Origin: an uncultured Candidatus Saccharibacteria bacterium
GTDB taxonomy: Bacteria; Patescibacteriota; Saccharimonadia; Saccharimonadales; Saccharimonadaceae
Direction of reading: 5' to 3'
DNA length: 64,000 nucleotides
NCBI GenBank assembly: GCA_964536265.1
Contig: CAZHVV010000003.1
Span: 33,783 to 97,782, forward strand
In this document: positions 9,616 through 23,364 of the stretch, piece after piece
Numbering within the stretch: the first letter of the stretch is position 1
Layout of the letters: each line of letters begins with the position of its first letter
Program-made: the position numbers and the translations under genes
Notes under the pieces: model-generated
What the model was told of the DNA's origin: nothing
The model's database searches: none
Seen by the model: the letters and a program-made list of their open reading frames with translations, nothing else

Positions 9616-10104
9616 CTAGTACTCTTTGGAATGTTTTTTGCGTGACGACTTAAGATTATGTGTCAACCAACTATCAACAACAGCAGCAGTTACTGCACAT
9701 GCAAGTAACAGGCTCTGATTCGCAGCCACAAAATCGAGCATTGGTCGAACCGCCCCTTCTATCGGCAAACTTGTCGTTAGCGGACCAAGTACTAACAATG
9801 TGGCCATCAGCCCGAACGCCAATGCACCAAAGAAAGCCGTTCGCTTACTAGAATATGACGGCCCACTCATCAGTAAGACGATTGCCGGTAGTAATATGAG
9901 CACGACTCGTGCCGCAGTCAGTGAACTGAGCGGCTCAACTGGTACATCGAGTTTATCAAAATAACGCGCAACTTCACGGCTCAGCTGATCTGCTAACAGC
10001 GCACCTGCAGCAAGGGCCAACCCAAGCGTACCAAAGCGACGCTTGGACAGAAACGCAAGCGCAAACAAAGCAAGAAACAATACGATAATAACGACAAGCG
10101 TCAT
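9616..10104 (-). CDS. Hypothetical membrane protein
   Basis: 162 aa with about 4 TM segments and a basic C-terminus. Confidence 0.5.
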   Translation of the reverse strand: MTLVVIIVLFLALFALAFLSKRRFGTLGLALAAGALLADQLSREVARYFDKLDVPVEPLSSLTAARVVLILLPAIVLLMSGPSYSSKRTAFFGALAFGLMATLLVLGPLTTSLPIEGAVRPMLDFVAANQSLLLACAVTAAVVDSWLTHNLKSSRKKHSKEY

Positions 10105-10147
10105 GCCACTATCATATCACGCGATGAGTTGAGGTGAAACGTACGGA

Positions 10148-11056
10148 CTACGCGCCGATTTTATCTTTTTTCGGACGACGTTTCGCATTGATTTCGAGAT
10201 ATTCAATAACTTTCGTCGCAACGTCTCGCCCAGTTATGAGTTCAGGTGTTTTGAGACTTGCTGACGAGTTAACTTCAAGTACGAGAGGACCACGTTCTGA
10301 ACGCATCATATCAACACCACAGAACGTCGTTAGTCCCATAGCCTTTGCTGCTTTGATTGCAGTCTTGCGCTCTTCATCGGTCAACTTCACAGCACGACCT
10401 TCGCCGCCCTGGTGAGTATTGCTGCGAAAATCCCCATCTAAGCTTTGTCGCTTGACGCTGGCAACAACACGGCCACCAACGACGAGCGCCCGGATGTCTT
10501 CACCAGCCGATTCTTTCACAAATTCCTGTACCAGGAAGTTCACGCCTTCAACATAGAAGGCTTGCATAACAGCTTTAGCTGCCTTAGGTGTTTCGGCTAA
10601 TACGACACCGTTACCGTGTGTGCCTCGTGCGACTTTGATAATAAGCGGCGTACCACCAGCAAGTTCTATAACGTCTTCAAAGTTCGCCGTTTCACGAGCA
10701 AAAACCGTCTTTGGAATACCAACTCCAGCTTTTGCAAGCACTTGGTAGGCACGTAACTTATCGCGTGAACGGTTAATTGCAATCGAGCTCGCTGTTGTGA
10801 GTGATCCTTGCGCCTCAAACTGACGCACCATAGCTGTACCATATTTAGTATAGCTCTGAGCAATCCGTGGGATGATTGCATCGAAATGCTCGAGCGACTC
10901 ACCTTTATACCGAATTACAGGTTTATCTTTTTCAACCGAAACATAACATTTCGCATAATTAACTACTCGTACATCATGTCCGCGCGCTTTGGCGGCTTCC
11001 TTAAGACGCTTCGTTGTGTAGTTTATTGAACCTTTCGATAAAATAGCGATTTTCAT
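10148..11056 (-). CDS. rimK: RimK-family alpha-L-glutamate ligase (ATP-grasp)
   Basis: 302 aa: MKIAILSKGSINYTTKRLKEAAKARGHDVRVVNY..., GTPLIIKVARGTHGNGVVL, FVQEF, LEVNSS. Its ATG overlaps the upstream stop (ATGA). Confidence 0.85.
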   Translation of the reverse strand: MKIAILSKGSINYTTKRLKEAAKARGHDVRVVNYAKCYVSVEKDKPVIRYKGESLEHFDAIIPRIAQSYTKYGTAMVRQFEAQGSLTTASSIAINRSRDKLRAYQVLAKAGVGIPKTVFARETANFEDVIELAGGTPLIIKVARGTHGNGVVLAETPKAAKAVMQAFYVEGVNFLVQEFVKESAGEDIRALVVGGRVVASVKRQSLDGDFRSNTHQGGEGRAVKLTDEERKTAIKAAKAMGLTTFCGVDMMRSERGPLVLEVNSSASLKTPELITGRDVATKVIEYLEINAKRRPKKDKIGA

Positions 11057-11520
11057 ATATGCTCCTCCTTTAGGCCTGCTTGCAATATTTTTGAACGCTC
11101 GAGCTCTTTATCCCTTAACGGTGAACCGAGCGACACGTCTACAATAAATTTGCGTAGTAATGTATTTCGGCCGATTAGTACTGGGTATACTTGTTTGCTT
11201 CGATCAGCAAGGGTAAACGTGGCATAAATTCTACGTTTACGTATGATAATCGGTATCTTGATACGATATCTTACCTGTTCGTGGCCCATCGAACTAGCAA
11301 CCCTGACTCGGTCATAATGGGCAAATAATTGTTCCATAGGCTGTATCTTTTTGTTTCGATAACCGAATTGAACCTTCAGCCCACTTGGTGTCTCTTCGAT
11401 ATTTGTTGCCCATATCGAAGAGGTCTTTGCTCCTGTATCAATTCGAGCATGCAAAACCATACCCTGCAGCTCAGGAAATGTAACTTTTTCGACACGTCCG
11501 ATTATGGTTTTTTCTTTCAT
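11053..11520 (-). CDS. Retropepsin-like aspartic protease (DUF785 / RimB-like), partner of RimK
   Basis: IGRVEKVTFPELQGMVLHARIDTGAKTSSIWA contains a D-T-G-A active-site-like motif. It is translationally coupled to rimK. The ATG at 11520 is preferred over the track start at 11559. Confidence 0.65.
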   Translation of the reverse strand: MKEKTIIGRVEKVTFPELQGMVLHARIDTGAKTSSIWATNIEETPSGLKVQFGYRNKKIQPMEQLFAHYDRVRVASSMGHEQVRYRIKIPIIIRKRRIYATFTLADRSKQVYPVLIGRNTLLRKFIVDVSLGSPLRDKELERSKILQAGLKEEHI

Positions 11521-11539
11521 ATATTTTCTTATTATATCA

Positions 11540-12472
11540 TTATAATAATAAATAATCAACTAACGCCGTTACTGCACCCCTAGGTGTACCGAACTTTGGA
11601 TCATCGTGCATGTCAATTCCAGGATTGGCATTTATTTCTATTACCCATAGATTATCATCACCATCCCACATAAAGTCTACGCCACATACACCCATCCTAA
11701 GCTCCTTAGCAATGGTTGTAGCAATAGATTTCATCTGTTCCGGAACTGAGTCTGTCATGTCCTCGGCACGCCCCCCAGTACTAAGATTTGGAACGCCTAC
11801 TACCTGCACAGTCTCGCCGGCCATTGGTATAGTCTCGATATGCTCACCAAGATACATTTCAGAGATATCTAACGGGATATACTCCAGAGCTTTCGAATAA
11901 TTTGACCCACGCTCAGGATTCTTGTTTTCTTGCACTATGAGCTCACGGACTGAATGCGCACCGTCTCCCTTTACACACGCGGGTATTCGCTGAAGTGCGG
12001 CAACATACTTTCCATCGATACATAACACTCTGTAGTCATCGCCCGATACCATTTGCTGTAATAATATTTTTTTGCCAAATTTCTCTGCATGCTTAACCGC
12101 TGCTGCAAGTTGTTCACTCGACTCTACCCCGAGTGTAATACCGTTGCCATGAGCTCCGTTAAGCGGTTTGACTGCAATAGGACGATACTGCTCGAGGAAT
12201 TGTACAGCACTCGCTTCACTATATTGCTGTGATGCAGGATGAGGCCAACCCATCTTTTGGCTTACTACGCTCGTAAGTGTTTTGTTTTCTGCAATAGCAT
12301 ATGCAATTGCTGGTTCTTTATCTCCTAACGTACTATGCAGTAAGTGCTGCTGTCCTTGATATTCATATTCGACAAGTGATGGATCAGTGTTAAGAATTTT
12401 TACAGGAATACCGCGTCGCTGTAATTCATAGTACACAAGGCGCATCGTGATCTTTAAATCATTTGGTTGCAT
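11540..12472 (-). CDS. Stand-alone ATP-grasp ligase, cyanophycin-synthetase G-domain-like
   Basis: IAVKPLNGAHGNGITLGV, YRVLCIDGKYVAALQRIPACVKGDGAHSVRELI, NLSTGGRAEDMTD, GVDFM...VIEINANPG. The start is chosen at MQPNDL (ATG 12472) rather than 12559. Confidence 0.7.
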   Translation of the reverse strand: MQPNDLKITMRLVYYELQRRGIPVKILNTDPSLVEYEYQGQQHLLHSTLGDKEPAIAYAIAENKTLTSVVSQKMGWPHPASQQYSEASAVQFLEQYRPIAVKPLNGAHGNGITLGVESSEQLAAAVKHAEKFGKKILLQQMVSGDDYRVLCIDGKYVAALQRIPACVKGDGAHSVRELIVQENKNPERGSNYSKALEYIPLDISEMYLGEHIETIPMAGETVQVVGVPNLSTGGRAEDMTDSVPEQMKSIATTIAKELRMGVCGVDFMWDGDDNLWVIEINANPGIDMHDDPKFGTPRGAVTALVDYLLL

Positions 12473-13151
12473 GGATACTGTCCAGTAATTCTTGAATGCC
12501 TGCTGCGTATGCATCCATTTTTTCATCATTAAATGCGCCAGTCGCAACTTGTGGTGCACGGTTTACTTCAAGAATAAAATGCTCACCTGTTTGCTCGTTG
12601 ATGATTAAATCAACTCCAGCGACCTGCAAACGTTCAAGCTTAGCTGCAGTCTCTGCATCCTTAATCATCTGGTCGGAAAGGTCAGATAGATTAACCATAT
12701 GCGCGCTACCCCCCTTTGACGTATTATTGAGATAAGCGCCTGGAGCGGCTTGACGTAGAAAAGCGAGCTTCACTTTGCCATTCAGTGTCAAAAGTCGGTA
12801 ATCGCCATTATTAGGTATATACTCTTGAGCTATCATTGCTTTGTCACCGAGTGAGTTTAACTTCTCTTCGAACTCTTGCTGCGACTCTATCAAGTAGTTA
12901 TCGTCACCTTTTTTTGCGATGTCTGCCTTGAGCACTAATGGGAAGGTGAGCTTGACTCTGCGTATCGCTTCATCCATATTCTTCGACCCCTTCGTGTACA
13001 CAGCCGTTGGGACTGGTACAATACTTTGACGAGCGAATGAGCACGCCAGCTTGCCACGAGCTTCAGTCAATAGATATTCGTCGATAAACTTTACGCCTTT
13101 TTGCTTTAGGTAATGAGCCGCCGCCACACCCCACTCAAACCAATCTCCCAC
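12459..13151 (-). CDS. ATP-grasp ligase, central and C-terminal domains (RimK/GshB-like); probably the 3' part of an interrupted gene
   Basis: PLVLKADIAKKGDDNYL, AQEYIPNNGDYRLLTLNGK, SKGGSAHMVNL, GVDLII...ILEVNRAPQ. The GTG start has no RBS. It is in the same frame as 13206-13403, separated by a single TAA. Confidence 0.65.
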   Translation of the reverse strand: MGDWFEWGVAAAHYLKQKGVKFIDEYLLTEARGKLACSFARQSIVPVPTAVYTKGSKNMDEAIRRVKLTFPLVLKADIAKKGDDNYLIESQQEFEEKLNSLGDKAMIAQEYIPNNGDYRLLTLNGKVKLAFLRQAAPGAYLNNTSKGGSAHMVNLSDLSDQMIKDAETAAKLERLQVAGVDLIINEQTGEHFILEVNRAPQVATGAFNDEKMDAYAAGIQELLDSIHATK

Positions 13152-13205
13152 CGGTGGAAAAACGACCAGGTCAAATTCCGTAATTTCAAACCCTTGGGTA
13201 TTGTC

Positions 13206-13403
13206 TTAAAATGCTGTCATTTTATTGCCGGTAATATATGTCAATTCACTGAGCGCTGTAACACGTACCTGCGTATCCTTCAAGCGCTGTTCTGCGCCAT
13301 CAGTTAGCCCAAACCAATTGAATCCTTCGAGGTTTTCAGGCTTTTGGCTTACGATGATTAGTACTTTTTTCAATTTGCATGGTCCTTTCTGATACACTGT
13401 CAA
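13206..13403 (-). pseudogene. N-terminal (pre-ATP-grasp) fragment of the same ligase, ended by an in-frame TAA
   Basis: (M)KKVLIIVSQKPENLEGFNWFGL... looks like a Rossmann-like pre-ATP-grasp start. 13403-13151 = 252 nt, so the frame is identical. Only the TAA at 13206-13208 separates the two ORFs. Confidence 0.5.
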
Positions 13404-13437
13404 TTCTTAGTATAAAGTATGGCAAGCATAGGCGCTC

Positions 13438-14496
13438 TTATCTTTTCGAGAGTCGAGCTAGTAATTCGGCGAGCATATGGCGTTGAATACGTGCATCCTC
13501 TGCTCCTTCTTCGTCAGTCACCATCATGGGGTCGCGAGTATTTATTTCACGTATCAGCAAATCAGGTTCATTGTGTCCAGGAAGGACTGTTTGGATAAAA
13601 TCGATTGCAAAGTAACCACCATGCACCCCAGCTTCCTTCAATAATCTCTGACTAACTGTATCGGCAATGTCCCACACTCTTTGCGGTACACTATTTTGAT
13701 CAATCTCAGCCCATTTATCTTCCTTATCCCGAAAAGCACGTCCAGTTGCATAATATTTAGCTTGAAGTGGTAGATTGGCATCTTGGTCAGTAACGAAGCA
13801 GTAAGCCCTCAGTTCTTGAGAGTGAGATCTTTGGAGTAATCCCTCTGCATATTCGGTACGACCTACTAAACCTTGCCATTTATAACCAGGTGCAAAAGTC
13901 TGAACCAATACATCATGGTTTGCTCGATTTGGTCGTGCCTGCAGCTCTGTTCGCATAGCAGCGACAGTTGTTCCTACCTCAGCACGACTAACAATTTTGC
14001 AGTCGCGAGATAACTGTGACATATCGGCCTTCACGACAAAGGTACTGCCCTGCAATTTATTCATATCAGCCATGTGTGCGGTATCTCCTAAAATTGTCGG
14101 CGGCATAAACTCTCGCGCCAGTTTATATTGGCGCCACTTGCTTGCGCCAACTTCGCGTAGTCTTGGTCCGTTTAGCACATCAACCCCAGGGGTATCTTCA
14201 ACTTCCTGTGGTGTGTTGACGCGTGCTCGAATTACATTGACACCTCCGTCACCAAGTGGAAGTTCTATAGTAGTAGAACTATATTGGTTGTTGCTGCTAC
14301 CCGTAATAGTGTGGACATCAACTGTGCCGTTATCGGTATGATAAGCATCGATATTTGGAACTAACACTAATCCGATTCCTAGCTCACCCAGACGTTGTTG
14401 TACGAAGTTATTACCATAAGCACTCGGATCCGACTCAGACAAATTTCGGAAGTGCAGGGCTGTTTGTGTTTCATTATCACTGAGTGACGATGTCAT
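13438..14496 (-). CDS. Divergent ATP-grasp-like protein
   Basis: 352 aa with FVVKADMSQLSRDCKIV, VLVQTFAPGYKW, ELRAYCFV and GGYFAIDFIQ...LIREINTRDP, an order resembling the ATP-grasp core. The family assignment is tentative. Confidence 0.45.
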   Translation of the reverse strand: MTSSLSDNETQTALHFRNLSESDPSAYGNNFVQQRLGELGIGLVLVPNIDAYHTDNGTVDVHTITGSSNNQYSSTTIELPLGDGGVNVIRARVNTPQEVEDTPGVDVLNGPRLREVGASKWRQYKLAREFMPPTILGDTAHMADMNKLQGSTFVVKADMSQLSRDCKIVSRAEVGTTVAAMRTELQARPNRANHDVLVQTFAPGYKWQGLVGRTEYAEGLLQRSHSQELRAYCFVTDQDANLPLQAKYYATGRAFRDKEDKWAEIDQNSVPQRVWDIADTVSQRLLKEAGVHGGYFAIDFIQTVLPGHNEPDLLIREINTRDPMMVTDEEGAEDARIQRHMLAELLARLSKR

Positions 14497-14503
14497 ATTG
14501 CCT

Positions 14504-14532
14504 ATTATAGCAAATTTCTCTTATTTTGTCAA
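14504..14532 (-). promoter_or_regulatory. Consensus sigma70 promoter; leaderless start for the 13438-14496 gene
   Basis: On the minus strand: TTGACA, 17 nt, TATAAT, then 7 nt, then ATG (14496). There is no Shine-Dalgarno sequence. Confidence 0.6.
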
Positions 14533-14587
14533 TCGTCTCCAGACTCTCCCTGAACTTATGAGCTTAATCTAGAATTTACGCATGTAG

Positions 14588-15547
14588 TTAATCAGATAGT
14601 TTATCTAGCCAGTCACCGATATGCGCTAAGATAGGAATATTTTGACGGTTTCGAGTACTATAGTACATCGTCAACGCCGGACCTGCATTACACTCTAAGA
14701 AACAATAGTTCGTATCGTTTGCAGGATGAGTGATATTCTGGATTAACATATCAACGCACAGCACGCCAGTACGTAAAGACTCTGCCATAGATACTGCAAG
14801 TCGTGTGTAGCTTTCATCGATATCATCCTTTACCTCATACAGTGATGCGCCTTTTCCCACTAAACTTGAAGTATTAATAGTAAGTTGTTGGCCAAGGCCA
14901 AGCACTTTACTAGCCATATTTAGCATCATATTTGGGAGCGACACTGCTGGATACGTCAACATGCTTCCATTGTTCAGCTCCCTACGCTCTTCATTTTCAT
15001 GGTCAATTAGTTGCCGGAGCGTCTGCTCACCATCGCCAATAAGACTGAGTTTTCTTTTTTCTATCACCGACACTAACGTAGTGCCGATAAATGTAAAACG
15101 GAATTCACTTCCACTACACTGCTCCTGAACGAAAATGCTCGATGAGACCTTGTAAGCATTTTTCATAGCACTAGATAACTGCTGCTCATTATGTATACCT
15201 AGCGTCAACCCCCAGGAGCCCTGACTATCGGAGGGTTTTACGACGAGATATTCATACTTACGCAACAACGCAGTCACCTCTGAGAATTTATCACCCTGCC
15301 TTTGAAGCACGGTATGCGGAACATTAATCCCTAGACTCTTGGCCAGCCGATTGGTCAAGTCTTTATTCTTGATTAGTTTGAATTGTCGGTCATCTGTTTG
15401 TGGATAGTGAACTATCCCTCGTCTTGTAACCCATTCATAGCCAGAACGAACGAAATGCTCAAGTCTACGGTTATCTGAATCTGTGGACTGAAAGTTTTCC
15501 CAGCCTCTCTTTTCTAATTCTTGCCTAATGAGGTCAATTGAAAGCAT
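14588..15547 (-). CDS. Stand-alone ATP-grasp ligase, cyanophycin-synthetase G-domain-like
   Basis: 319 aa: NKDLTNRLAKSLGINVPHT, YLVVKPSDSQGSWGLTLGI, FRFTFIGTTLVSVIEKRKLSLIGDGEQTLRQLI, CVDMLI...FLECNAGP. It starts 13 nt after the dnaJ stop. Confidence 0.7.
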   Translation of the reverse strand: MLSIDLIRQELEKRGWENFQSTDSDNRRLEHFVRSGYEWVTRRGIVHYPQTDDRQFKLIKNKDLTNRLAKSLGINVPHTVLQRQGDKFSEVTALLRKYEYLVVKPSDSQGSWGLTLGIHNEQQLSSAMKNAYKVSSSIFVQEQCSGSEFRFTFIGTTLVSVIEKRKLSLIGDGEQTLRQLIDHENEERRELNNGSMLTYPAVSLPNMMLNMASKVLGLGQQLTINTSSLVGKGASLYEVKDDIDESYTRLAVSMAESLRTGVLCVDMLIQNITHPANDTNYCFLECNAGPALTMYYSTRNRQNIPILAHIGDWLDKLSD

Positions 15548-15560
15548 TTATGACAATTTC

Positions 15561-16658
15561 TTAGAAATAACTCTTCTTGGTTGATTTCCAGAAGTCTTCG
15601 AGCAGTTCTTTTTGCTTCTTTGAGAGTTTGGTTGGTGTGTCGACAACAACAGAGACAATATGAGCACCTCGAGAGCTTCCCTTTAGATGCGGAACACCGT
15701 GCCCAGACAGTTTGAAGTCGGTGCCACTCTGCGTACCAGATGGAATCTTCATGCGAACTTTTCCATCGACAGTTTCAACATCTATCTCCGTACCAAGTGA
15801 GGCTTCAACAATACCGATATGTTCTTCGCTCAAGATTAAGTCGCCCTCACGTGTGAACTTTTTGTGTGGTTTGACGCGCAGATGAACATAGAGGTCACCT
15901 TTCGGAGCATCGGCAGCAGCTTCACCACGTTCACGCAAGCGAATCGTCGCACCGTCATCAACGCCAGCAGGAACTTTCAGTGTGATTTCTTGACGCTTGC
16001 GTTCAGTGCCGCGCCCACTACAAACTGTACAAACTCTTTCCGGAATCTTCCCGCGACCATGACAGGTTTGACAGACAACACCCTGCTGAATAGCGCCAAA
16101 AATCGTATTCATAATACGAGTTTGCTGGCCGGAGCCTTTACAGGTCGCACATGTTTTCAGTTCATAACCCGGCTCAACAGTACTACCTTTACAATGCGAG
16201 CATTCGTCTTCCATTGTGAGTGAGAGTTGTTTCTCGACACCGAAAATAGCTTCTTCGAATGTCAAGTCAAGATTTGTCTCAACATCACGACCTCGCTCTG
16301 GACCACGGCGTGACTGTGAGCCACCAAAGAATGAACCAAATATGTCACCAAGGCCACCTTCGCCAAAGTCGAAATTAACATTCTGACCGCCAAAACCTTC
16401 AAATGGATTCCCGCTATAGCCTGCACTACCGCCAGCTGCACCGCCAACTCCGGCATGGCCGAATTGGTCGTAACGCTGACGCTTTTGCTTGTCTTTCAGG
16501 ACTTCATACGCTTCGCTTAGCTCTTTGAACTTCGTTTCGTCACCACCTTCTTTGTCGGGGTGATGTTTGACGGCAGCCTTGCGGTAGGCCTTTTTGATTT
16601 CATCGTCACTGGCGTTTTTGTCAACGCCAAGTACTTCGTAATAATCACGCTTATTCAT
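15561..16658 (-). CDS. dnaJ: Molecular chaperone DnaJ
   Basis: 365 aa with a J domain (DYYEVLGV...HPDK), a G/F-rich region and four CxxCxGxG zinc motifs. Confidence 0.95.
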
Positions 16659-16666
16659 CTGTTACT

Positions 16667-16695
16667 AGTATAAAAAATTAGCACTCAAAAGTAAA
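16667..16695 (-). promoter_or_regulatory. Candidate dnaJ promoter overlapping CIRCE
   Basis: On the minus strand: TTTACT, 17 nt, TATACT, then 8 nt, then ATG (16658). No SD is visible. Confidence 0.45.
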
Positions 16696-16704
16696 GAGTG
16701 CTAG
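16678..16704. promoter_or_regulatory. CIRCE operator (HrcA binding site) upstream of dnaJ
   Basis: TTAGCACTC-aaaagtaaa-GAGTGCTAg, compared with the consensus TTAGCACTC-N9-GAGTGCTAA. Confidence 0.75.
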
Positions 16705-16910
16705 TCCTTGCTAGTCGTATCATCACTTTGCGGCGTTGTGGTATCGTCTTGCGGGACACCACCCGACTGAGCTGCCTTTTTCTCGACAATAGCTGCCGCA
16801 TTCTCAACTTTCGCCGCTGCATCCTCAACGCTATCAATTGCGTTGTCGAGTAATTTCTCGACGTTGTCTATCTTTTCCGTAATTGAATCAAATATATCAA
16901 ATAATCCCAT
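16701..16910 (-). CDS. Small acidic hypothetical protein
   Basis: 69 aa with a predicted helical N-terminal part and a D/T-rich tail. No family recognised. Confidence 0.4.
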   Translation of the reverse strand: MGLFDIFDSITEKIDNVEKLLDNAIDSVEDAAAKVENAAAIVEKKAAQSGGVPQDDTTTPQSDDTTSKD

Positions 16911-17304: not shown

Positions 17305-18522
17305 ATGGGTTTATCAACGCGAAAATTTCAAAAGGCAAGTAGCCAGATGTACCACGGTACCAGTATTGGACCGATGGGATACCGGATAAGTGAAATGTTC
17401 GGGGGTGATGGCAACGGCTCCTGGATTAATACCCCACTGCCACCAACGGCTGCTATTCACCCTGATTCTGCGACAGCAGTCGCTGATATTGTTGAGAATG
17501 TACATAATTTCGCAACAGGAACATCCGTCATAGCTTGGCCAACACTAAACTATTCTACGTACACAGCGACGCTTAATGTCATCGATTCATCAAAAATAGC
17601 TTTGCAACCTGTCACGGTAAGCGGTGCCAACGCCTCAGCATCATGGGCCTTTCCAACGGCTGCGATGATGTACGCCGGCTTCCCGCTTCCTAGAGGGCTA
17701 CAACCAACAGATGACAGCGACGGCACAATTCACTTATATGATCCTGACTGGAAATGGCCGGGTCGCCCTAGCGATACCCAGTACTGGGGTCGAATATGGG
17801 AGCTGTGGGGCGCAAGAAGCCCTGAGCAGAACGTTGCAGCCGGCAACCCAGCCATATGGACTGCAAAAATTGGTGGTCGGCTAACAGGAGTCAATCAGCG
17901 CCTTAGTGCCCACCCTATCAACCGAACATTTCAAGCCGATGTCACAAGCCAGGCTTCGCCGAGCTACGGGGCACCAAAGGCACCGAACGACACAAGCGGC
18001 AACACAATATATTGGGGTTATGGGCCGGACGGCGTGTATGAATCCTCCGCCTGGATGGCATCAGCATCACATCTTCCCATGAGCCATCATATCTTGCGAA
18101 AAAGTGATATGGTCAATGCGACCATACCCCACCCAATGGGATTCTCACTATTTCCAATGTACCCAACTAATGAAGGAAGTAAGGGTAGCGTCTGGCCAGC
18201 AACTAGCTATGATGCCGCATCTCGTAACTGGCTCAAACACGGCAATCGTTTACGACTACCTGCAGGCTACGTCGCCTCATACCCTTCGGGTATGCCGGTC
18301 TCATGGCGACCGATGTTCGACATGTTCATAAATTGCTTTCGGGATTATGGGATAATTATGGTTGACACAACGGGCAATTCGTTCGCAATGCGCGCCGAGC
18401 CAGGGGTAGAAAGCTATTACCCAAGTGGTTTTAGCGGAAAAACGTTTATTCAATATCTACCTTGGGAAGACATGCAGATGATTGTAGTTGGTAGCGACGC
18501 CGATTTCTATCCAGGTGCATAA
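17305..18522 (+). CDS. Hypothetical protein, W/Y/P-rich, possibly carbohydrate-active
   Basis: 405 aa long ORF with coding-like composition. No family recognised and no obvious signal peptide. Confidence 0.55.
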   Translation: MGLSTRKFQKASSQMYHGTSIGPMGYRISEMFGGDGNGSWINTPLPPTAAIHPDSATAVADIVENVHNFATGTSVIAWPTLNYSTYTATLNVIDSSKIALQPVTVSGANASASWAFPTAAMMYAGFPLPRGLQPTDDSDGTIHLYDPDWKWPGRPSDTQYWGRIWELWGARSPEQNVAAGNPAIWTAKIGGRLTGVNQRLSAHPINRTFQADVTSQASPSYGAPKAPNDTSGNTIYWGYGPDGVYESSAWMASASHLPMSHHILRKSDMVNATIPHPMGFSLFPMYPTNEGSKGSVWPATSYDAASRNWLKHGNRLRLPAGYVASYPSGMPVSWRPMFDMFINCFRDYGIIMVDTTGNSFAMRAEPGVESYYPSGFSGKTFIQYLPWEDMQMIVVGSDADFYPGA

Positions 18523-20519: not shown

Positions 20520-20546
20520 TTAGCACTCTTCGTTTGAGACTGCCAA
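20520..20546. promoter_or_regulatory. Degenerate CIRCE element in the dnaK 5' leader
   Basis: TTAGCACTC-ttcgtttga-GAcTGCcAA; the right arm has two mismatches. Confidence 0.5.
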
Positions 20547-20553
20547 TATTTCT

Positions 20554-20582
20554 AGTGTAGAAAATATTAGCACTCGTGTCAA
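20554..20582 (-). promoter_or_regulatory. Candidate dnaK promoter
   Basis: On the minus strand: TTGACA (inside the distal CIRCE spacer), 17 nt, TACACT. The RBS AAAGGGGAA precedes ATG 20471. Confidence 0.55.
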
Positions 20583-20593
20583 TAGAGTGCCAA
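20567..20593. promoter_or_regulatory. CIRCE operator upstream of dnaK
   Basis: TTAGCACTC-gtgtcaata-GAGTGCcAA. Confidence 0.75.
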
Positions 20594-20638: not shown

Positions 20639-22078
20639 TTAACGATACTGGCCTAAGACGTCGATTTGACCAGTTGTGCCACGAAGCGAAGAGAACCGGT
20701 AGTAGCCTGTATCTTGAGAGATATCGCTATTTCGTTGAGTAATAGATGAAGAAATAGTTGCGACAGTCTGAGTATTTCTCACTGCAGATGCAGACTGCAC
20801 ACCGAGCTGTGCAGGATATGCTGCAATACTCATACCAGCTGGTGCCGTGTACGTATAAGTACTACCACCACTAGTGATAGTAATATCAGCTGGAGCTACC
20901 AAAAACGTCAATGCCTCAACATAATTCCGTGCGGCCGACATAGAACCGCGTGGCCATTGGCTCATCGGCAGAGTGGTTGACCCCGTGATAGTGGCATCTA
21001 AAGTCTGCGGGCGATGAGAAAGGTAGATACAATCACGCAAGATTGTTGGATACTGACCTGTTTTCCACTTTGTTATGTAGTAGGCTGATATATCGAGATT
21101 TACCCACCCATTGCATGCCGATGGCGCCATAGGTGTCTCAGAAAAATCTGACCACGTCACCATCTGTACGTAGTCAGCGTTTTGTCCAATTGCCTTCTCC
21201 CACGCAGCACGTAAACTCCCTGTGTTGAGAGCTTCATCCCATAGCTGGGCTGGAGGACGGATATCTTGCGAGACTACTGGTGCCATGAATTTTTCCCCCC
21301 GAGCTAAGGCTGCGGGCTGGTAGTTACCTGCCGCATTTATCACACTCGGGTCTGCACCATATCCCCACACCGACGAAGCATAGCACAAACCAGTGTAGTT
21401 CGGAGCTTGATTCCAGTTAAGATAAACTGAGAAAAAGGCAATGTCAAGCCCCCAGGTCGTCAGCAGTTCATCAAATACCTGCTGCCACCACAAATATGTT
21501 TTGCCTTCTGTTAGGAAAGACCCAACAACGTAGCGCCCATCAGGCAAATAGTACGATCCGTTCTTGCCTGCATATTTTCTGATATGGTCCGCTGCCACTT
21601 GTGGAGTAGCAGCACCTGTGGCACCATTTGCGTCGACCATTGGCAGGACATAAAAACCAACATTCATATCATCAGCTGCCTGAACTAATTTCATATAGCG
21701 GTCGTAGTTAGAGCCTGATAATCCCAGAAGGTCACAGAAGAATCCATCAATCCCAGCCGCTTGTGCCTGTTCAATGTCCCAGACAGCATCTAAATACGTA
21801 TAGTCGCCGCCACGTTGCGGACGCCAAATGGGTCTATCGCGATACATACCACCATAATCTTGATACGTGGCATAATTAGGATTGTTGAATGCAGTCGTAT
21901 ACGAATCGGTTGCAAGCGTCACACTATCGTTCAACGAGCGAGGGTACGGTCCGAAATAGTGTGCGAAGACTTTTTTCGAGCTGCTATTCAGAACAGCATA
22001 ATCCATCGCGAACGGCAACCCTTCTGTCGCTTGCTGTCGAGTTCCTACCCTCTGCAACCTACGCGCACCTATACTCAT
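20639..22078 (-). CDS. Glycoside hydrolase family 71-like (alpha-1,3-glucanase / mutanase-like)
   Basis: 479 aa. The motif order matches my memory of GH71 mutanases: KKVFAHYF, AQAAGIDGFFCDLLG, FMAPVV, VQMVTWSDFSE, and the C-terminal ITITSGGSTYTYTAPAG block. No signal peptide was seen. Confidence 0.6.
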   Translation of the reverse strand: MSIGARRLQRVGTRQQATEGLPFAMDYAVLNSSSKKVFAHYFGPYPRSLNDSVTLATDSYTTAFNNPNYATYQDYGGMYRDRPIWRPQRGGDYTYLDAVWDIEQAQAAGIDGFFCDLLGLSGSNYDRYMKLVQAADDMNVGFYVLPMVDANGATGAATPQVAADHIRKYAGKNGSYYLPDGRYVVGSFLTEGKTYLWWQQVFDELLTTWGLDIAFFSVYLNWNQAPNYTGLCYASSVWGYGADPSVINAAGNYQPAALARGEKFMAPVVSQDIRPPAQLWDEALNTGSLRAAWEKAIGQNADYVQMVTWSDFSETPMAPSACNGWVNLDISAYYITKWKTGQYPTILRDCIYLSHRPQTLDATITGSTTLPMSQWPRGSMSAARNYVEALTFLVAPADITITSGGSTYTYTAPAGMSIAAYPAQLGVQSASAVRNTQTVATISSSITQRNSDISQDTGYYRFSSLRGTTGQIDVLGQYR

Positions 22079-22614: not shown

Positions 22615-23328
22615 TTATAGCACTTCTTCGAGCATTGCACCTGTATGGCGAACGAGTCGCATAACACGTGCATAGTCCTGCCGCGTTGGGCCGAGTACAC
22701 CTATGTAGCTACCGTCTGAATATGGTGAGCAAAAACGGCTAATGATAAGGCTTGCTTGTGAGCTTTTACCTATCGGATTCTCGGCACCAATAAAGACATT
22801 GAGTGGCTCGTTTGGCGCAGCTTCACGAAGCCATGGCTCAAGGTTATCTAACAGGCTGGCAATTTGCTGAACATTGTGCGGATTGGTTATGAACTCTGGC
22901 TGAGAAAATAAGTTACCCATACCACTGATATATAGCTGGTCGCCAATGGTTGCAAGACCAAGATTGTGTGTCACTTCAGCCAAACTGTCAACAGCGCTAC
23001 GAATCGCACGGTCAGTTCTATCACCAAAGGTCGCAACTCGCGCGTCAATCGCTCTCGTACTGCGATCGGCTAATTGCGGTTGCTCTGTACCTCGTAAGTC
23101 ACCGAGCTGGTTCACGTAGTACCGATACCCCTTGTCAGTAGGGACACGGCCAGCACTGGTGTGCGGCTGCATGATGAGGTCAAGTTCTTCTAGCTGGGCC
23201 ATCTCGCTACGAATCGTAGCACTCGAAACTCCAAACAGCTTCGCAAGCGTCACGCTGCCGACTGGCACCGCCACCTCTGCGTACTGTTCGATGATTGCCG
23301 CAAGAATTCTAACCTGGCGTTCTGTCAT
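22615..23328 (-). CDS. hrcA: Heat-inducible repressor HrcA (short, ~237 aa)
   Basis: MTERQVRILAAIIEQYAEVAVPVGSVTLAKLFGVSSATIRSEMAQLEELDLIMQPHTSAGRVPTDKGYRYYV is a winged helix of the HrcA type. The start is chosen at ATG 23328. Confidence 0.85.
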   Translation of the reverse strand: MTERQVRILAAIIEQYAEVAVPVGSVTLAKLFGVSSATIRSEMAQLEELDLIMQPHTSAGRVPTDKGYRYYVNQLGDLRGTEQPQLADRSTRAIDARVATFGDRTDRAIRSAVDSLAEVTHNLGLATIGDQLYISGMGNLFSQPEFITNPHNVQQIASLLDNLEPWLREAAPNEPLNVFIGAENPIGKSSQASLIISRFCSPYSDGSYIGVLGPTRQDYARVMRLVRHTGAMLEEVL

Positions 23329-23334
23329 ACTGGT

Positions 23335-23364
23335 AGTATACCGTAAATTGGCAGTCTCCGTCAA
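23335..23364 (-). promoter_or_regulatory. Candidate hrcA promoter, leaderless
   Basis: On the minus strand: TTGACG, 18 nt, TATACT, then 6 nt, then ATG 23328. Confidence 0.5.

What the first reader, a model, noticed from the sequence alone, without database searches (positions are those of the whole stretch)
10148..15547. Five ATP-grasp ligase genes in tandem plus a retropepsin-like protease
Reading the minus strand, dnaJ is followed after only 13 nt by a chain of ligase genes. The order is a CphA-G-domain-like ligase (15547-14588), a divergent ATP-grasp-like protein (14496-13438) and a RimK/GshB-like ligase (13403-12459, interrupted). Then come a second CphA-G-domain-like ligase (12472-11540), a DUF785 retropepsin-like protease (11520-11053) and RimK (11056-10148). 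The protease and RimK are coupled by an ATGA overlap. RimK plus a DUF785 protease is a known pairing. Three or four additional stand-alone amino-acid ligases in the same string is unusual for what looks like a reduced genome. It suggests a multi-step, non-ribosomal addition of amino acids to a protein, peptide or cell-wall precursor. I see no precursor-peptide-like small ORF between the ligase genes.
Basis: partly seen in the sequence, partly recalled or inferred. Interest (0 to 1): 0.7.

Follow-up and report, generated by a model that had tools for sequence, protein, structure and literature searches.

The report
Peptide-ligase gene island in a Saccharibacterium
A tiny-genome Saccharibacterium carries five tandem amino-acid-ligase genes and a RimB-type protease gene right after the heat-shock gene dnaJ, and related species carry a different mix of ligases and peptidases at this same site, probably to add and trim amino-acid tails or polymers.

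Summary
On the minus strand, dnaJ is followed by five ATP-grasp genes (A, B, C, D, F) and a RimB-like retropepsin protease gene (E).

- **F** is a true RimK orthologue.
- **E** has the DTG catalytic motif and overlaps F by ATGA.
- **D** is a stand-alone CphA1 G-domain-like ligase that keeps the catalytic and Asp-recognition residues.
- **A** is a divergent GshF/CphA-like ligase.
- **C** is a divergent RimK-superfamily ligase with one in-frame TAA where relatives have Tyr.
- **B** has no Pfam or NCBIfam hit, but a confident model is an ATP-grasp fold and the Mg-binding motifs are invariant.

The organism is a Saccharibacterium. In 68 related species, dnaJ…rimB-rimK is conserved. The space between them is hypervariable and holds 0–4 extra ATP-grasp genes, plus Mur-ligase-like, S51, MATCAP and DUF3541 genes. 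So several ligases at this site are normal for the class, and the window sits at the top of the range.

Storage polymers and small peptides remain rivals. I rate this a new variant of the RimBK system with an unmodelled ATP-grasp clade. Interest is moderate to high.

The parts
16678..16704 (.). CIRCE (HrcA operator) inverted repeat directly upstream of dnaJ
   Evidence: TTAGCACTC-N9-GAGTGCTAG, 1 mismatch to the consensus. There are 3 matches in the window against 0.06 expected by chance.
15561..16658 (-). dnaJ, the conserved upstream anchor of the island
   Evidence: TIGR02349 DnaJ_bact 404.9 bits, above its cutoff. It lies upstream of rimB-rimK in nearly all related loci.
14588..15547 (-). 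Ligase A: stand-alone GshF/CphA-G-like ATP-grasp with a divergent substrate pocket, 13 nt after dnaJ
   Evidence: NCBIfam cyanophycin-synthetase model 4e-32, partial match. PDB hits GshF 3ln7 at 1.4e-17 and CphA1 at 1e-13. It keeps K220, K261, R309, D431, E450 and N452 (TeCphA1 numbering) but has H267G, R323K, N394L and R458T.
14504..14532 (-). Consensus sigma-70 promoter (TTGACA-17-TATAAT with TG) ending 7 nt before the ATG of B
   Evidence: 12 of 12 positions match, the best site in the region. The spacing to the ATG was read.
13438..14496 (-). Ligase B: member of an unmodelled ATP-grasp clade
   Evidence: No Pfam, NCBIfam or PDB sequence hit. AlphaFold pLDDT 90. Foldseek matches Ddl, ArgX, RimK and GshB at E about 1e-11. 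VVKAD, ELR, AID and REINTRDPMM are invariant or nearly so; in the QEF hinge only the Q is invariant. Only 147 representatives among 1.84 billion proteins.
12459..13373 (-). Ligase C: divergent RimK-superfamily ATP-grasp with an in-frame TAA at 13206-13208
   Evidence: PF08443 3e-21. TIGR00768 scores 77.5 bits against a cutoff of 143. The stop replaces Tyr, which is intact in L013 and L015. The poly-Glu-binding R64 and S68 of RimK are P and D here.
11540..12472 (-). Ligase D: stand-alone cyanophycin-synthetase G-domain-like ATP-grasp
   Evidence: TIGR02068 2.6e-68 over model positions 139-470 only. PDB CphA1 7lgn at 2e-40. It keeps K220, K261, H267, R309, R323, N394, D431, E450, N452 and G456, and lacks E215 and R458. 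Relatives are 300-330 aa stand-alone proteins; the few that carry an organism name are from Saccharibacteria.
11053..11520 (-). E: RimB-like retropepsin-type aspartic endopeptidase, translationally coupled to F
   Evidence: PF05618 at 62.6 bits against a cutoff of 27. NF052261 RimB at 55 bits against a cutoff of 200. D28-T29-G30 motif is in the sequence. ATGA overlap with F.
10148..11056 (-). F: RimK (alpha-L-glutamate ligase) orthologue
   Evidence: Rimk_N plus RimK domains. PRK10446 at 323 bits (cutoff 331) and TIGR00768 at 242 bits (cutoff 143). P. aeruginosa RimK 7qyr at 2e-90 over the full length. Poly-Glu-binding S7, K8, T14, R64, S68, R189 and N262 are retained.
9616..10104 (-). Conserved 162-aa membrane protein always downstream of rimK (context, function unknown)
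   Evidence: tblastn finds it after rimK in most related loci. It has no family hit.

Best explanation
This is the Saccharibacteria version of the RimB-RimK system, enlarged by accessory peptide ligases.

**Core.** The conserved core is rimB-rimK (E-F), translationally coupled. RimK adds alpha-linked glutamates, using ATP, to a C-terminal carboxylate. By analogy that carboxylate belongs to ribosomal protein S6 or to a free poly-alpha-glutamate chain. RimB, a retropepsin-like endopeptidase, trims such tails.

**Variable slot.** Between the HrcA/CIRCE-controlled dnaJ and rimB lies a slot that differs between species of the class. It collects further ATP-grasp amidoligases and, in other species, peptidases and Mur-type ligases. 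The window holds one of the fullest sets:
- A, GshF/CphA-like, apparently transcribed with dnaJ.
- B, from a new ATP-grasp clade, behind its own consensus promoter.
- C, RimK-like, here carrying a nonsense codon.
- D, CphA-G-like, with the residues that bind an incoming aspartate.

**Chemistry.** All of these families do the same chemistry. They activate a carboxylate as an acyl phosphate, and the amino group of an incoming amino acid then attacks it. The most likely function is therefore template-independent addition of different amino acids to peptide or protein C-termini. Their acceptor and donor pockets differ from one another, and proteolytic trimming balances the additions.

**Shown:** gene content, folds, catalytic residues, synteny and variability.
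**Inferred:** substrates, the order of action, and the link to heat shock.
For: - **Gene identities:**
- **B is an ATP-grasp:**
- **Catalytic residues:** the Lys, hinge, Arg and Asp-Glu-Asn residues are present in all five ligases.
- **D against CphA1:** D keeps the CphA1 catalytic residues H267 and R309 and the Asp-binding residues R323 and N394 (residue roles from PMC9427784).
- **F against RimK:** F keeps the poly-Glu-binding residues of RimK (PMC10092738).
- **E:** it has the DTG motif and an ATGA overlap with F.
- **RimB biochemistry:** RimB cleaves runs of at least 5-6 Glu and stimulates RimK (PMC11957791).
- **Synteny:** dnaJ-[variable]-rimB-rimK-membrane protein-comEC is found in about 70 Saccharibacteria species.
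- **Slot contents in relatives:** several ATP-grasp clades, Mur-ligase-like, S51, MATCAP and DUF3541 genes.
- **Tie of B to the slot:** even a distant B-like protein (E 1.6e-16) sits in the same slot.
- **Regulatory sites:** CIRCE at dnaJ and a perfect promoter before B.
Against: - No substrate is identified. rpsF is neither in the window nor in any fetched locus, so the S6 C-terminus could not be checked.
- F falls 8 bits short of the NCBIfam S6-ligase equivalog cutoff, and E is far below the RimB equivalog cutoff.
- C carries a stop codon, and B is deleted in the nearest relatives. Some members are therefore dispensable and may be decaying.
- The accessory ligases vary independently between species. 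That argues against an obligatory multi-step pathway on one substrate.
- Promoter and CIRCE matches are consensus scans, not evidence of expression.
Confidence: 0.55

Rival explanations
1. Amino-acid storage polymers. The ligases act independently and build free homo- or co-polymers, such as poly-alpha-glutamate by RimK with RimB and an Asp-rich, cyanophycin-like chain by D. The peptidases remobilise these polymers. This would give an amino-acid-auxotrophic epibiont a buffer of host-derived amino acids.
For: - RimK with RimB makes free poly-alpha-Glu in vitro and in vivo (PMC11957791).
- D keeps the Asp-recognition residues of CphA1.
- Sister islands combine A- or D-like ligases with Mur-ligase-like genes (a split CphA layout) or with S51 peptidases, the cyanophycinase/dipeptidase E family.
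- A preprint reports 'cyanophycin synthetase' and S51 genes in Saccharimonadia MAGs (10.64898/2026.09.16.751625).
Against: - The window has no Mur-type ligase, no CphA N domain and no S51 gene.
- D lacks E215, which binds the Arg side chain of the cyanophycin primer, and R458.
- NCBIfam scores are 231 (D) and 106 (A) bits against a cutoff of 850 for true cyanophycin synthetase.
Confidence: 0.2
2. Small-peptide biosynthesis. The ligases are L-amino-acid ligases or GshB-like enzymes. They would assemble a di- to tetrapeptide, such as a thiol, a compatible solute, or an antimetabolite aimed at the host bacterium, without any protein acceptor.
For: - The best structural relative of A is the glutathione-forming ATP-grasp domain of GshF.
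- Fifteen related islands carry an ATP-grasp_4 protein with a weak match to the L-amino-acid-ligase C2 domain.
- The slot is hypervariable, as is common for secondary-metabolite or conflict loci.
Against: - The window cluster has no exporter, tailoring enzyme or GshA-like partner.
- There are no PADLOC defence hits.
- The invariant partners are RimK and RimB, which act on poly-Glu tails.
- MATCAP-type protein carboxypeptidases in sister islands point to protein or peptide C-termini.
Confidence: 0.15
3. Cell-wall precursor modification. The extra ligases would add or exchange amino acids on the peptidoglycan stem peptide or another envelope polymer.
For: - The top Foldseek hits of B include D-Ala-D-Ala ligases.
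- A and D have weak Ddl family hits.
- Mur-ligase-like genes occur in 8 related islands.
Against: - The Ddl hits are far weaker than the RimK, CphA and GshF hits.
- No mur, fem or other cell-wall genes lie in the neighbourhood.
- The locus is anchored to rimBK and the chaperone operon.
Confidence: 0.05
4. Decaying paralogue remnants. Apart from rimB-rimK, the extra ligases are relics of past duplications or transfers with no current function.
For: - C has an in-frame TAA.
- B is reduced to N- or C-terminal remnants in L015 and L013.
- Eleven of 68 species have no extra ligase.
Against: - A, B and D are full length with all catalytic residues.
- B has 57 invariant columns, including every ATP-grasp motif, across homologues that are 40-78% identical.
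- B sits behind a 12/12 consensus promoter.
- 57 of 68 species keep at least one extra ligase.
- The TAA could be an assembly error. It could not be verified independently.
Confidence: 0.05

Closest known systems
RimK-RimB(-RimA) ribosomal protein S6 polyglutamylation system of Pseudomonas (PMC4741518, PMC7343187, PMC11957791)
   Same: - F is a full-length RimK orthologue (2e-90 to P. aeruginosa RimK) and keeps the poly-Glu-binding residues.
- E is a PF05618 retropepsin-like protein with the DTG motif.
- The two genes are adjacent and translationally coupled.
   Different: - There is no RimA or cyclic-di-GMP component.
- E is well below the RimB equivalog score.
- Four further ATP-grasp genes sit in the same string.
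- The module is fixed next to dnaJ across a whole class.
- In relatives, RimB is fused to the C-terminus of a C-type ligase (L004, L096). The published RimBK hybrid has RimB at the N-terminus of RimK.
Cyanophycin synthetase CphA1, G domain (PDB 7lgn, 7wac; PMC9427784)
   Same: - D aligns over the whole G domain, including the Glid and G-omega inserts.
- D keeps K220, K261, H267, R309, R323, N394, D431, E450 and G456.
- The chemistry is the same: adding an amino acid to a backbone C-terminal carboxylate.
   Different: - D and A are stand-alone proteins of about 310 aa, without the N domain or the Mur-like M domain.
- E215 and R458 are replaced.
- A has also lost H267, N394 and G456.
- They cannot make cyanophycin on their own.
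GshF (GshAB) C-terminal ATP-grasp domain (PDB 3ln7)
   Same: It is the best solved relative of A (1.4e-17). It adds one amino acid to the C-terminal carboxylate of a short peptide.
   Different: No GshA (gamma-glutamylcysteine ligase) domain or gene accompanies A. Identity is low.
Tubulin tail code: TTL/TTLL ATP-grasp ligases with MATCAP/CCP carboxypeptidases (analogy only)
   Same: Several ATP-grasp 'writer' enzymes are paired with peptidase 'erasers'. MATCAP-family genes occur in about 11 related islands.
   Different: No MATCAP gene is in the window. TTL Pfam hits are only faint. There is no evidence of a shared substrate. The resemblance is one of system logic, not of membership.
LysX/ArgX-LysW amino-group carrier systems and graspetide (RiPP) ATP-grasp maturases
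   Same: The model of B superposes well on ArgX/LysX (TM-score normalised to the target up to 0.72). These are ATP-grasp enzymes that act on a peptide or protein carboxylate.
   Different: No LysW-like carrier gene and no precursor-peptide ORF lies in or beside the cluster.

Membership tests
RimK, ribosomal protein S6--L-glutamate ligase (gene F) | Rimk_N pre-ATP-grasp domain plus RimK ATP-grasp domain over the full length | tested here: met
   PF18030 at 1.3e-35 and PF08443 at 4.6e-55. TIGR00768 at 241.9 bits against a cutoff of 143.4.
RimK, ribosomal protein S6--L-glutamate ligase (gene F) | Score above the NCBIfam equivalog cutoff (NF007764) | tested here: not met
   323.2 bits against a cutoff of 331, a narrow miss. 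The PDB RimK match at 2e-90 over the full length argues for orthology.
RimK, ribosomal protein S6--L-glutamate ligase (gene F) | Poly-alpha-Glu-binding residues S7, R8, S14, R64, S68, R189 and N262 of P. aeruginosa RimK | tested here: met
   F has S7, K8, T14, R64, S68, R189 and N262 in the gap-free alignment. The residue list is from PMC10092738.
RimK, ribosomal protein S6--L-glutamate ligase (gene F) | S6 with a Glu-ending C-terminus as acceptor, and glutamylation activity | not testable with these tools
   rpsF is absent from the window and all fetched loci.
RimB retropepsin-like aspartic endopeptidase (gene E) | PF05618 domain with the catalytic DTG motif | tested here: met
   62.6 bits against a cutoff of 27. 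D28-T29-G30 is in the sequence. The essential catalytic Asp of this motif is described in PMC11957791.
RimB retropepsin-like aspartic endopeptidase (gene E) | Score above the NCBIfam RimB equivalog cutoff (NF052261) | tested here: not met
   55.3 bits against a cutoff of 200. It is RimB-like, not a demonstrated equivalog.
RimB retropepsin-like aspartic endopeptidase (gene E) | Encoded next to, and co-expressed with, rimK | tested here: met
   ATGA overlap with F. The adjacency is conserved in nearly all related loci.
Cyanophycin synthetase CphA1 (genes D and A) | Three-domain architecture: N domain, G (ATP-grasp) domain and M (Mur-ligase) domain | tested here: not met
   D matches only model positions 139-470 of 862 and scores 231 bits against a cutoff of 850. 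A scores 106 bits. No Mur-ligase gene is in the cluster.
Cyanophycin synthetase CphA1 (genes D and A) | G-domain catalytic and substrate residues (K220, K261, H267, R309, R323, N394, D431, E450, G456, E215, R458) | tested here: inconclusive
   D keeps all of them except E215 (Ala) and R458 (Asp). A keeps only K220, K261, R309, D431 and E450.
ATP-grasp superfamily (gene B) | ATP-grasp three-domain fold | tested here: met
   AlphaFold pLDDT 90 and pTM 0.89. Foldseek probability 1.00 to Ddl, ArgX, RimK and GshB.
ATP-grasp superfamily (gene B) | ATP-binding Lys, hinge, Arg, and the Asp...Glu-x-Asn Mg-binding triad | tested here: met
   K156 (VVKAD), Q199, R230 (ELR), D299 (AID) and E317-I-N319 are invariant in 13 homologues.
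ATP-grasp superfamily (gene B) | Membership of an existing curated family model | tested here: not met
   No Pfam, NCBIfam or PDB sequence hit. Distant relatives also have none above cutoff.
RimK family alpha-L-glutamate ligase, TIGR00768 (gene C) | Score above the subfamily cutoff, and an intact reading frame | tested here: not met
   77.5 bits against a cutoff of 143.4 even with the stop repaired. In-frame TAA at 13206-13208. R64 and S68 are replaced by P and D.
Graspetide / RiPP ATP-grasp system | Adjacent small precursor-peptide gene | tested here: not met
   No co-directional ORF of at least 12 aa lies in any intergenic gap of the cluster.

The most novel reading that the evidence does not exclude
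Saccharibacteria may run a combinatorial tail code on protein C-termini, which could include ribosomal protein S6. The 'writers' would be several ATP-grasp clades with different specificities: RimK, C, A/D, the new B clade and LAL-like enzymes. The 'erasers' would be RimB, MATCAP-like and S51 peptidases. The system sits next to the HrcA-controlled chaperone operon and is reshuffled between species. That would let an ultra-small epibiont retune its ribosome or proteome after translation instead of through transcription factors.
Probability: 0.2. Interest if true: 0.85.

Novelty: new variant of a known kind. Interest (0 to 1): 0.6.

Why it matters
Saccharibacteria have genomes of about 1 Mb and few regulators and biosynthetic pathways. 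Yet this organism spends about 5.4 kb on five peptide-bond-forming ligases and a protease, and most species of the class keep at least two such ligases at the same site beside dnaJ.

If these enzymes tail proteins or ribosomes, this would be a compact post-translational control layer in a lineage with few other known regulatory options. If they make storage polymers or small peptides, they bear on how an amino-acid-dependent epibiont buffers or exploits host supplies.

Either way, the locus supplies a new ATP-grasp clade (B) and stand-alone CphA-G-like ligases with altered pockets. These are attractive for enzymology and for peptide-polymer biotechnology. The held literature contains no description of this island.

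Tried and rejected
- **B in species genomes:** a scan of the GTDB species genomes with the B profile found nothing. The window's genome and B's close relatives are not among the species representatives. I used the second scan with RimK instead.
- **B against solved structures:** a sequence-profile search of B against PDB found nothing. Only fold comparison placed it.
- **rpsF:** tblastn with E. coli and B. subtilis S6 gave weak hits that turned out to be GrpE. S18, SSB and L9 probes found nothing. The RimK acceptor could therefore not be examined.
- **The TAA in C:** an exact-protein look-up of the C fragment found nothing, and the look-up of F returned only a 1.3-kb contig. Pseudogene and assembly error cannot be separated.
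- **Defence system:** no PADLOC hits.
- **Graspetide or LysW-type carrier:** no small ORFs. The acidic 69-aa ORF upstream of dnaJ is only weakly conserved, in 2 loci, so I dropped it as a candidate substrate.
- **Complete cyanophycin synthetase:** rejected because the N and M domains are absent.
- **Context of distant B-like proteins:** two of the three look-ups gave contigs too short to be informative.

Full report
**1. The observation**

The minus strand carries these genes in order:

| Gene | Coordinates | Length |
|---|---|---|
| dnaJ | 15561-16658 | 365 aa |
| A | 14588-15547 | 319 aa |
| B | 13438-14496 | 352 aa |
| C | 12459-13403 | two ORFs |
| D | 11540-12472 | 310 aa |
| E | 11053-11520 | 155 aa |
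| F | 10148-11056 | 302 aa |

- The gap from dnaJ to A is 13 nt, and E and F overlap by ATGA.
- The two C ORFs are in the same frame. A single TAA at 13206-13208 separates them.
- No co-directional ORF of at least 12 codons fits in any intergenic gap.
C most likely starts at the TTG at 13373, which gives MKKVLIIVSQ behind GAAAGGA.

**2. What each gene is**

- **F** has the Rimk_N and RimK domains.
  - It scores 323 bits on the S6-glutamate-ligase equivalog (cutoff 331) and 242 bits on the RimK family model (cutoff 143).
  - It aligns end to end with P. aeruginosa RimK at 2e-90.
  - The residues that hold the poly-Glu chain in that structure are S7, R8, S14, R64, S68, R189 and N262 (PMC10092738). 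F has S7, K8, T14, R64, S68, R189 and N262.
- **E** is a PF05618 protein (62.6 bits) with D28-T29-G30.
  - This is the motif whose Asp is essential in RimB (PMC11957791).
  - E is far below the RimB equivalog cutoff (55 against 200 bits), so I call it RimB-like.
- **D** matches only the G (ATP-grasp) domain of cyanophycin synthetase (2.6e-68; PDB 7lgn at 2e-40).
- **A** is a more divergent member of the same branch. Its best solved relative is the glutathione-forming ATP-grasp domain of GshF (1.4e-17).
- **C** is a RimK-superfamily protein below every curated cutoff, even with the stop repaired (77.5 against 143 bits).
- **B** hits nothing in Pfam, NCBIfam or PDB sequences.
  - An AlphaFold model built on 13 homologues has pLDDT 90 and pTM 0.89.
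  - It superposes on D-Ala-D-Ala ligases, ArgX/LysX, RimK and GshB with Foldseek probability 1.00 at 12-14% identity.

**3. Catalytic competence**

- The B family alignment has 57 invariant columns. They include K156 in VVKAD, the hinge residue Q199, R230 in ELR, and D299...E317-I-N319. This is the classical ATP-grasp set.
- A five-way alignment shows the same Lys, Arg and Asp-Glu-Asn positions in F, C, D, A and B. B's hinge does not align there and was read from its own sequence (VLVQTF).
- I mapped the functionally tested residues of Trichodesmium CphA1 (PMC9427784) onto A and D.

| TeCphA1 residue | D | A |
|---|---|---|
| E215 | A | K |
| K220 | K | K |
| K261 | K | K |
| H267 | H | G |
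| R309 | R | R |
| R323 | R | K |
| N394 | N | L |
| D431 | D | D |
| E450 | E | E |
| N452 | N | N |
| G456 | G | A |
| R458 | D | T |

- D therefore keeps the catalytic residues and the two residues that bind the beta-carboxylate of incoming Asp (R323, N394).
- D lacks E215, which binds the Arg side chain of the cyanophycin primer, and R458.
- A keeps the ATP and Mg residues but has a different substrate pocket.
- C has lost the Arg and Ser that bind acidic acceptor side chains in RimK (R64 to P, S68 to D).
The pockets are clearly non-equivalent.

**4. Organism and comparative genomics**

- F belongs to a 90%-identity cluster that contains a protein named from Candidatus Saccharibacteria.
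- A scan of species-representative genomes with F returned 80 loci, nearly all from Saccharibacteria/Saccharimonadia MAGs, with 78-94% RimK identity.
- Mapping the window proteins onto these loci shows a conserved frame: hrcA-grpE-dnaK ... dnaJ - [variable segment] - rimB - rimK - 160-aa membrane protein - comEC.
- In 68 species with dnaJ and rimK on one contig, the distance from dnaJ to rimK runs from 0.6 to 9.2 kb, with a median of 3.4 kb. In the window it is 4.5 kb.
- The number of ATP-grasp genes at the site, counting rimK, is distributed as follows:

| ATP-grasp genes | Species |
|---|---|
| 1 | 11 |
| 2 | 33 |
| 3 | 17 |
| 4 | 5 |
| 5 | 2 |

- The contents of the variable segment are as follows:

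| Content | Species (of 68) |
|---|---|
| C-type ligases, sometimes duplicated or fused to RimB | 33 |
| A/D-type ligases | 20 |
| B-superfamily proteins | about 13 |
| ATP-grasp_4 proteins with a weak match to the L-amino-acid-ligase C2 domain | 15 |
| Mur-ligase-like proteins | 8 |
| S51 peptidases | 5 |
| MATCAP-family carboxypeptidases | about 11 |
| DUF3541 | 7 |
| Further proteins without Pfam hits, and one GT4-type glycosyltransferase family | several |

- The window combines A, B, C and D, a set not seen in any other locus.
- The nearest relatives have C-D-rimB-rimK with an intact C. They retain only an N-terminal remnant of B (L015) or a C-terminal remnant (L013). B was therefore lost recently in those lineages.
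- B itself is rare.
  - It has 14 clusters among 5.8 billion proteins by word-seeded search.
  - It has 147 representatives among 1.84 billion by full HMM search.
  - Even a distant member (E 1.6e-16) sits in the same dnaJ-rimK slot, next to a GNAT and a 755-aa ligase-RimB fusion.
- D-type proteins are likewise a small group of 300-330-aa stand-alone proteins. The few that carry an organism name are from Saccharibacteria, and sources label them 'hypothetical', 'ATP-grasp domain-containing' or 'cyanophycin synthetase'.

**5. Regulation (inferred)**

- A CIRCE operator with one mismatch lies at 16678-16704, between the -35 region and the dnaJ start codon. Two more precede dnaK. Chance expectation is 0.06 matches.
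- A follows dnaJ by 13 nt with no promoter-like site between them, so it is probably part of the HrcA-controlled transcript.
- A 12/12 sigma-70 consensus with an extended -10 TG ends 7 nt before the ATG of B. This suggests a strong, possibly leaderless B-C-D transcript.
- A 10/12 site precedes E, and F has an AAGGAGG ribosome-binding site.

**6. Mechanism**

- All the families involved activate a carboxylate as an acyl phosphate and join it to the amino group of an amino acid.
- RimK, the CphA1 G domain and GshF all work on a backbone C-terminal carboxylate.
- RimB cuts runs of at least 5-6 glutamates. It also stimulates RimK to make free poly-alpha-Glu.
- I therefore read the locus as a RimK/RimB tailing-and-trimming core. 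Accessory ligases add other residues, or act on other acceptors, in a template-independent way.
- D is the best candidate for adding Asp or a similar acidic residue.
- A, B and C have unknown donors and acceptors.
- The rivals are in the Rival explanations section: storage polymers, small free peptides, cell-wall modification and gene decay. The present data do not exclude the first two.
- Independent presence and absence of the accessory genes across species argues against one obligatory multi-step pathway. It favours a toolkit of separable modules.
- Recurrent pairings in relatives point the same way:
  - C with DUF3541.
  - S51 with the LAL-like ligase.
  - A-like with B-like and a Mur ligase.

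**7. Comparison with known systems and novelty**

- The RimB-RimK pairing is known and widespread (PMC11957791).
- A class-wide placement beside dnaJ is not described in the held literature. Neither is a hypervariable slot that accumulates up to four further ATP-grasp genes with several peptidase families, nor the B clade.
- One preprint notes 'cyanophycin synthetase' and S51 annotations in some Saccharimonadia MAGs, without locus analysis.
- The stand-alone D and A proteins fail the architectural definition of cyanophycin synthetase.
- I classify the finding as a new variant of a known kind.

**8. Limits**

- The stop codon in C could not be checked in an independent assembly.
- Promoter, CIRCE and operon statements rest on sequence patterns only.
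- Island family counts come from ORF clustering with fixed thresholds. They undercount fused or divergent members.

Noticed in passing
window 16678-16704, 20520-20546, 20567-20593: Three CIRCE (HrcA operator) inverted repeats: one directly upstream of dnaJ and two upstream of dnaK. Chance expectation is 0.06. The hrcA gene itself is at 22615-23364.
   Followed up: partly
window 14504-14532 (-); also 16667-16695 (-) and 10111-10138 (-): The -10 boxes end only 6-8 nt before the ATG of B, dnaJ and the 162-aa membrane protein gene, and none has a Shine-Dalgarno sequence. This suggests leaderless transcripts. rimK, in contrast, has a strong AAGGAGG.
   Followed up: no
window 16701-16910 (-): A 69-aa acidic ORF (MGLFDIFDS...DDTTSKD) lies just upstream of dnaJ, and its stop codon falls inside the CIRCE element. 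It is weakly conserved at the same position in L013 and L086 only, and has no family hit.
   Followed up: partly
window 17305-18522 (+) and 20639-22078 (-): The heat-shock operon is interrupted. A 405-aa plus-strand gene with no family hit lies between dnaK and dnaJ. A glycoside hydrolase family 71 (alpha-1,3-glucanase-like) gene lies between grpE and dnaK.
   Followed up: no
L013:7485-7595 and L015:2200-2320: Remnants of gene B sit directly before an intact C in the two closest relatives: the C-terminal 37 codons in L013 and the N-terminal ~30 codons in L015. This indicates recent deletion of B.
   Followed up: yes
L018:6155-9513, L024, L026: These islands run dnaJ, A-like ligase, B-like ATP-grasp (354 aa), Mur-ligase-like protein (Mur_ligase_M plus C), rimB, rimK. 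The layout resembles a cyanophycin synthetase split into separate genes.
   Followed up: partly
L019, L044, L046, L069, L077 (islands between dnaJ and rimB): All five islands with an S51 peptidase (the cyanophycinase/dipeptidase E family) also carry the ATP-grasp_4, L-amino-acid-ligase-like gene on the opposite strand. This looks like a recurrent ligase-peptidase module.
   Followed up: no
L043:2916-4265, L050:7292-8674, L044:6982-8190 and about 8 further loci: MATCAP-family (microtubule-associated tyrosine carboxypeptidase-like, PF08014) genes occur in the same slot in about 11 species.
   Followed up: no
L004:3517-4881 and L096:9144-11411: These are fusion proteins with a C-type ATP-grasp at the N-terminus (two ATP-grasp units in L096, 755 aa) and a RimB-like domain at the C-terminus. 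This is the reverse of the published RimBK hybrid order. L096 also has a GNAT acetyltransferase between dnaJ and the B-like gene.
   Followed up: partly
L007:8499-9479 (-) and 7 other species: A DUF3541 gene on the opposite strand always follows a C-type ligase and precedes rimB. Its function is unknown.
   Followed up: no
L013 record title: The closest species-representative genome (RimK 94% identical) is deposited as 'Candidatus Parcubacteria bacterium'. Other loci are labelled Chloroflexi or Acidobacteriota. Their synteny and RimK identity place them with Saccharibacteria, so these are probably binning or labelling errors.
   Followed up: no
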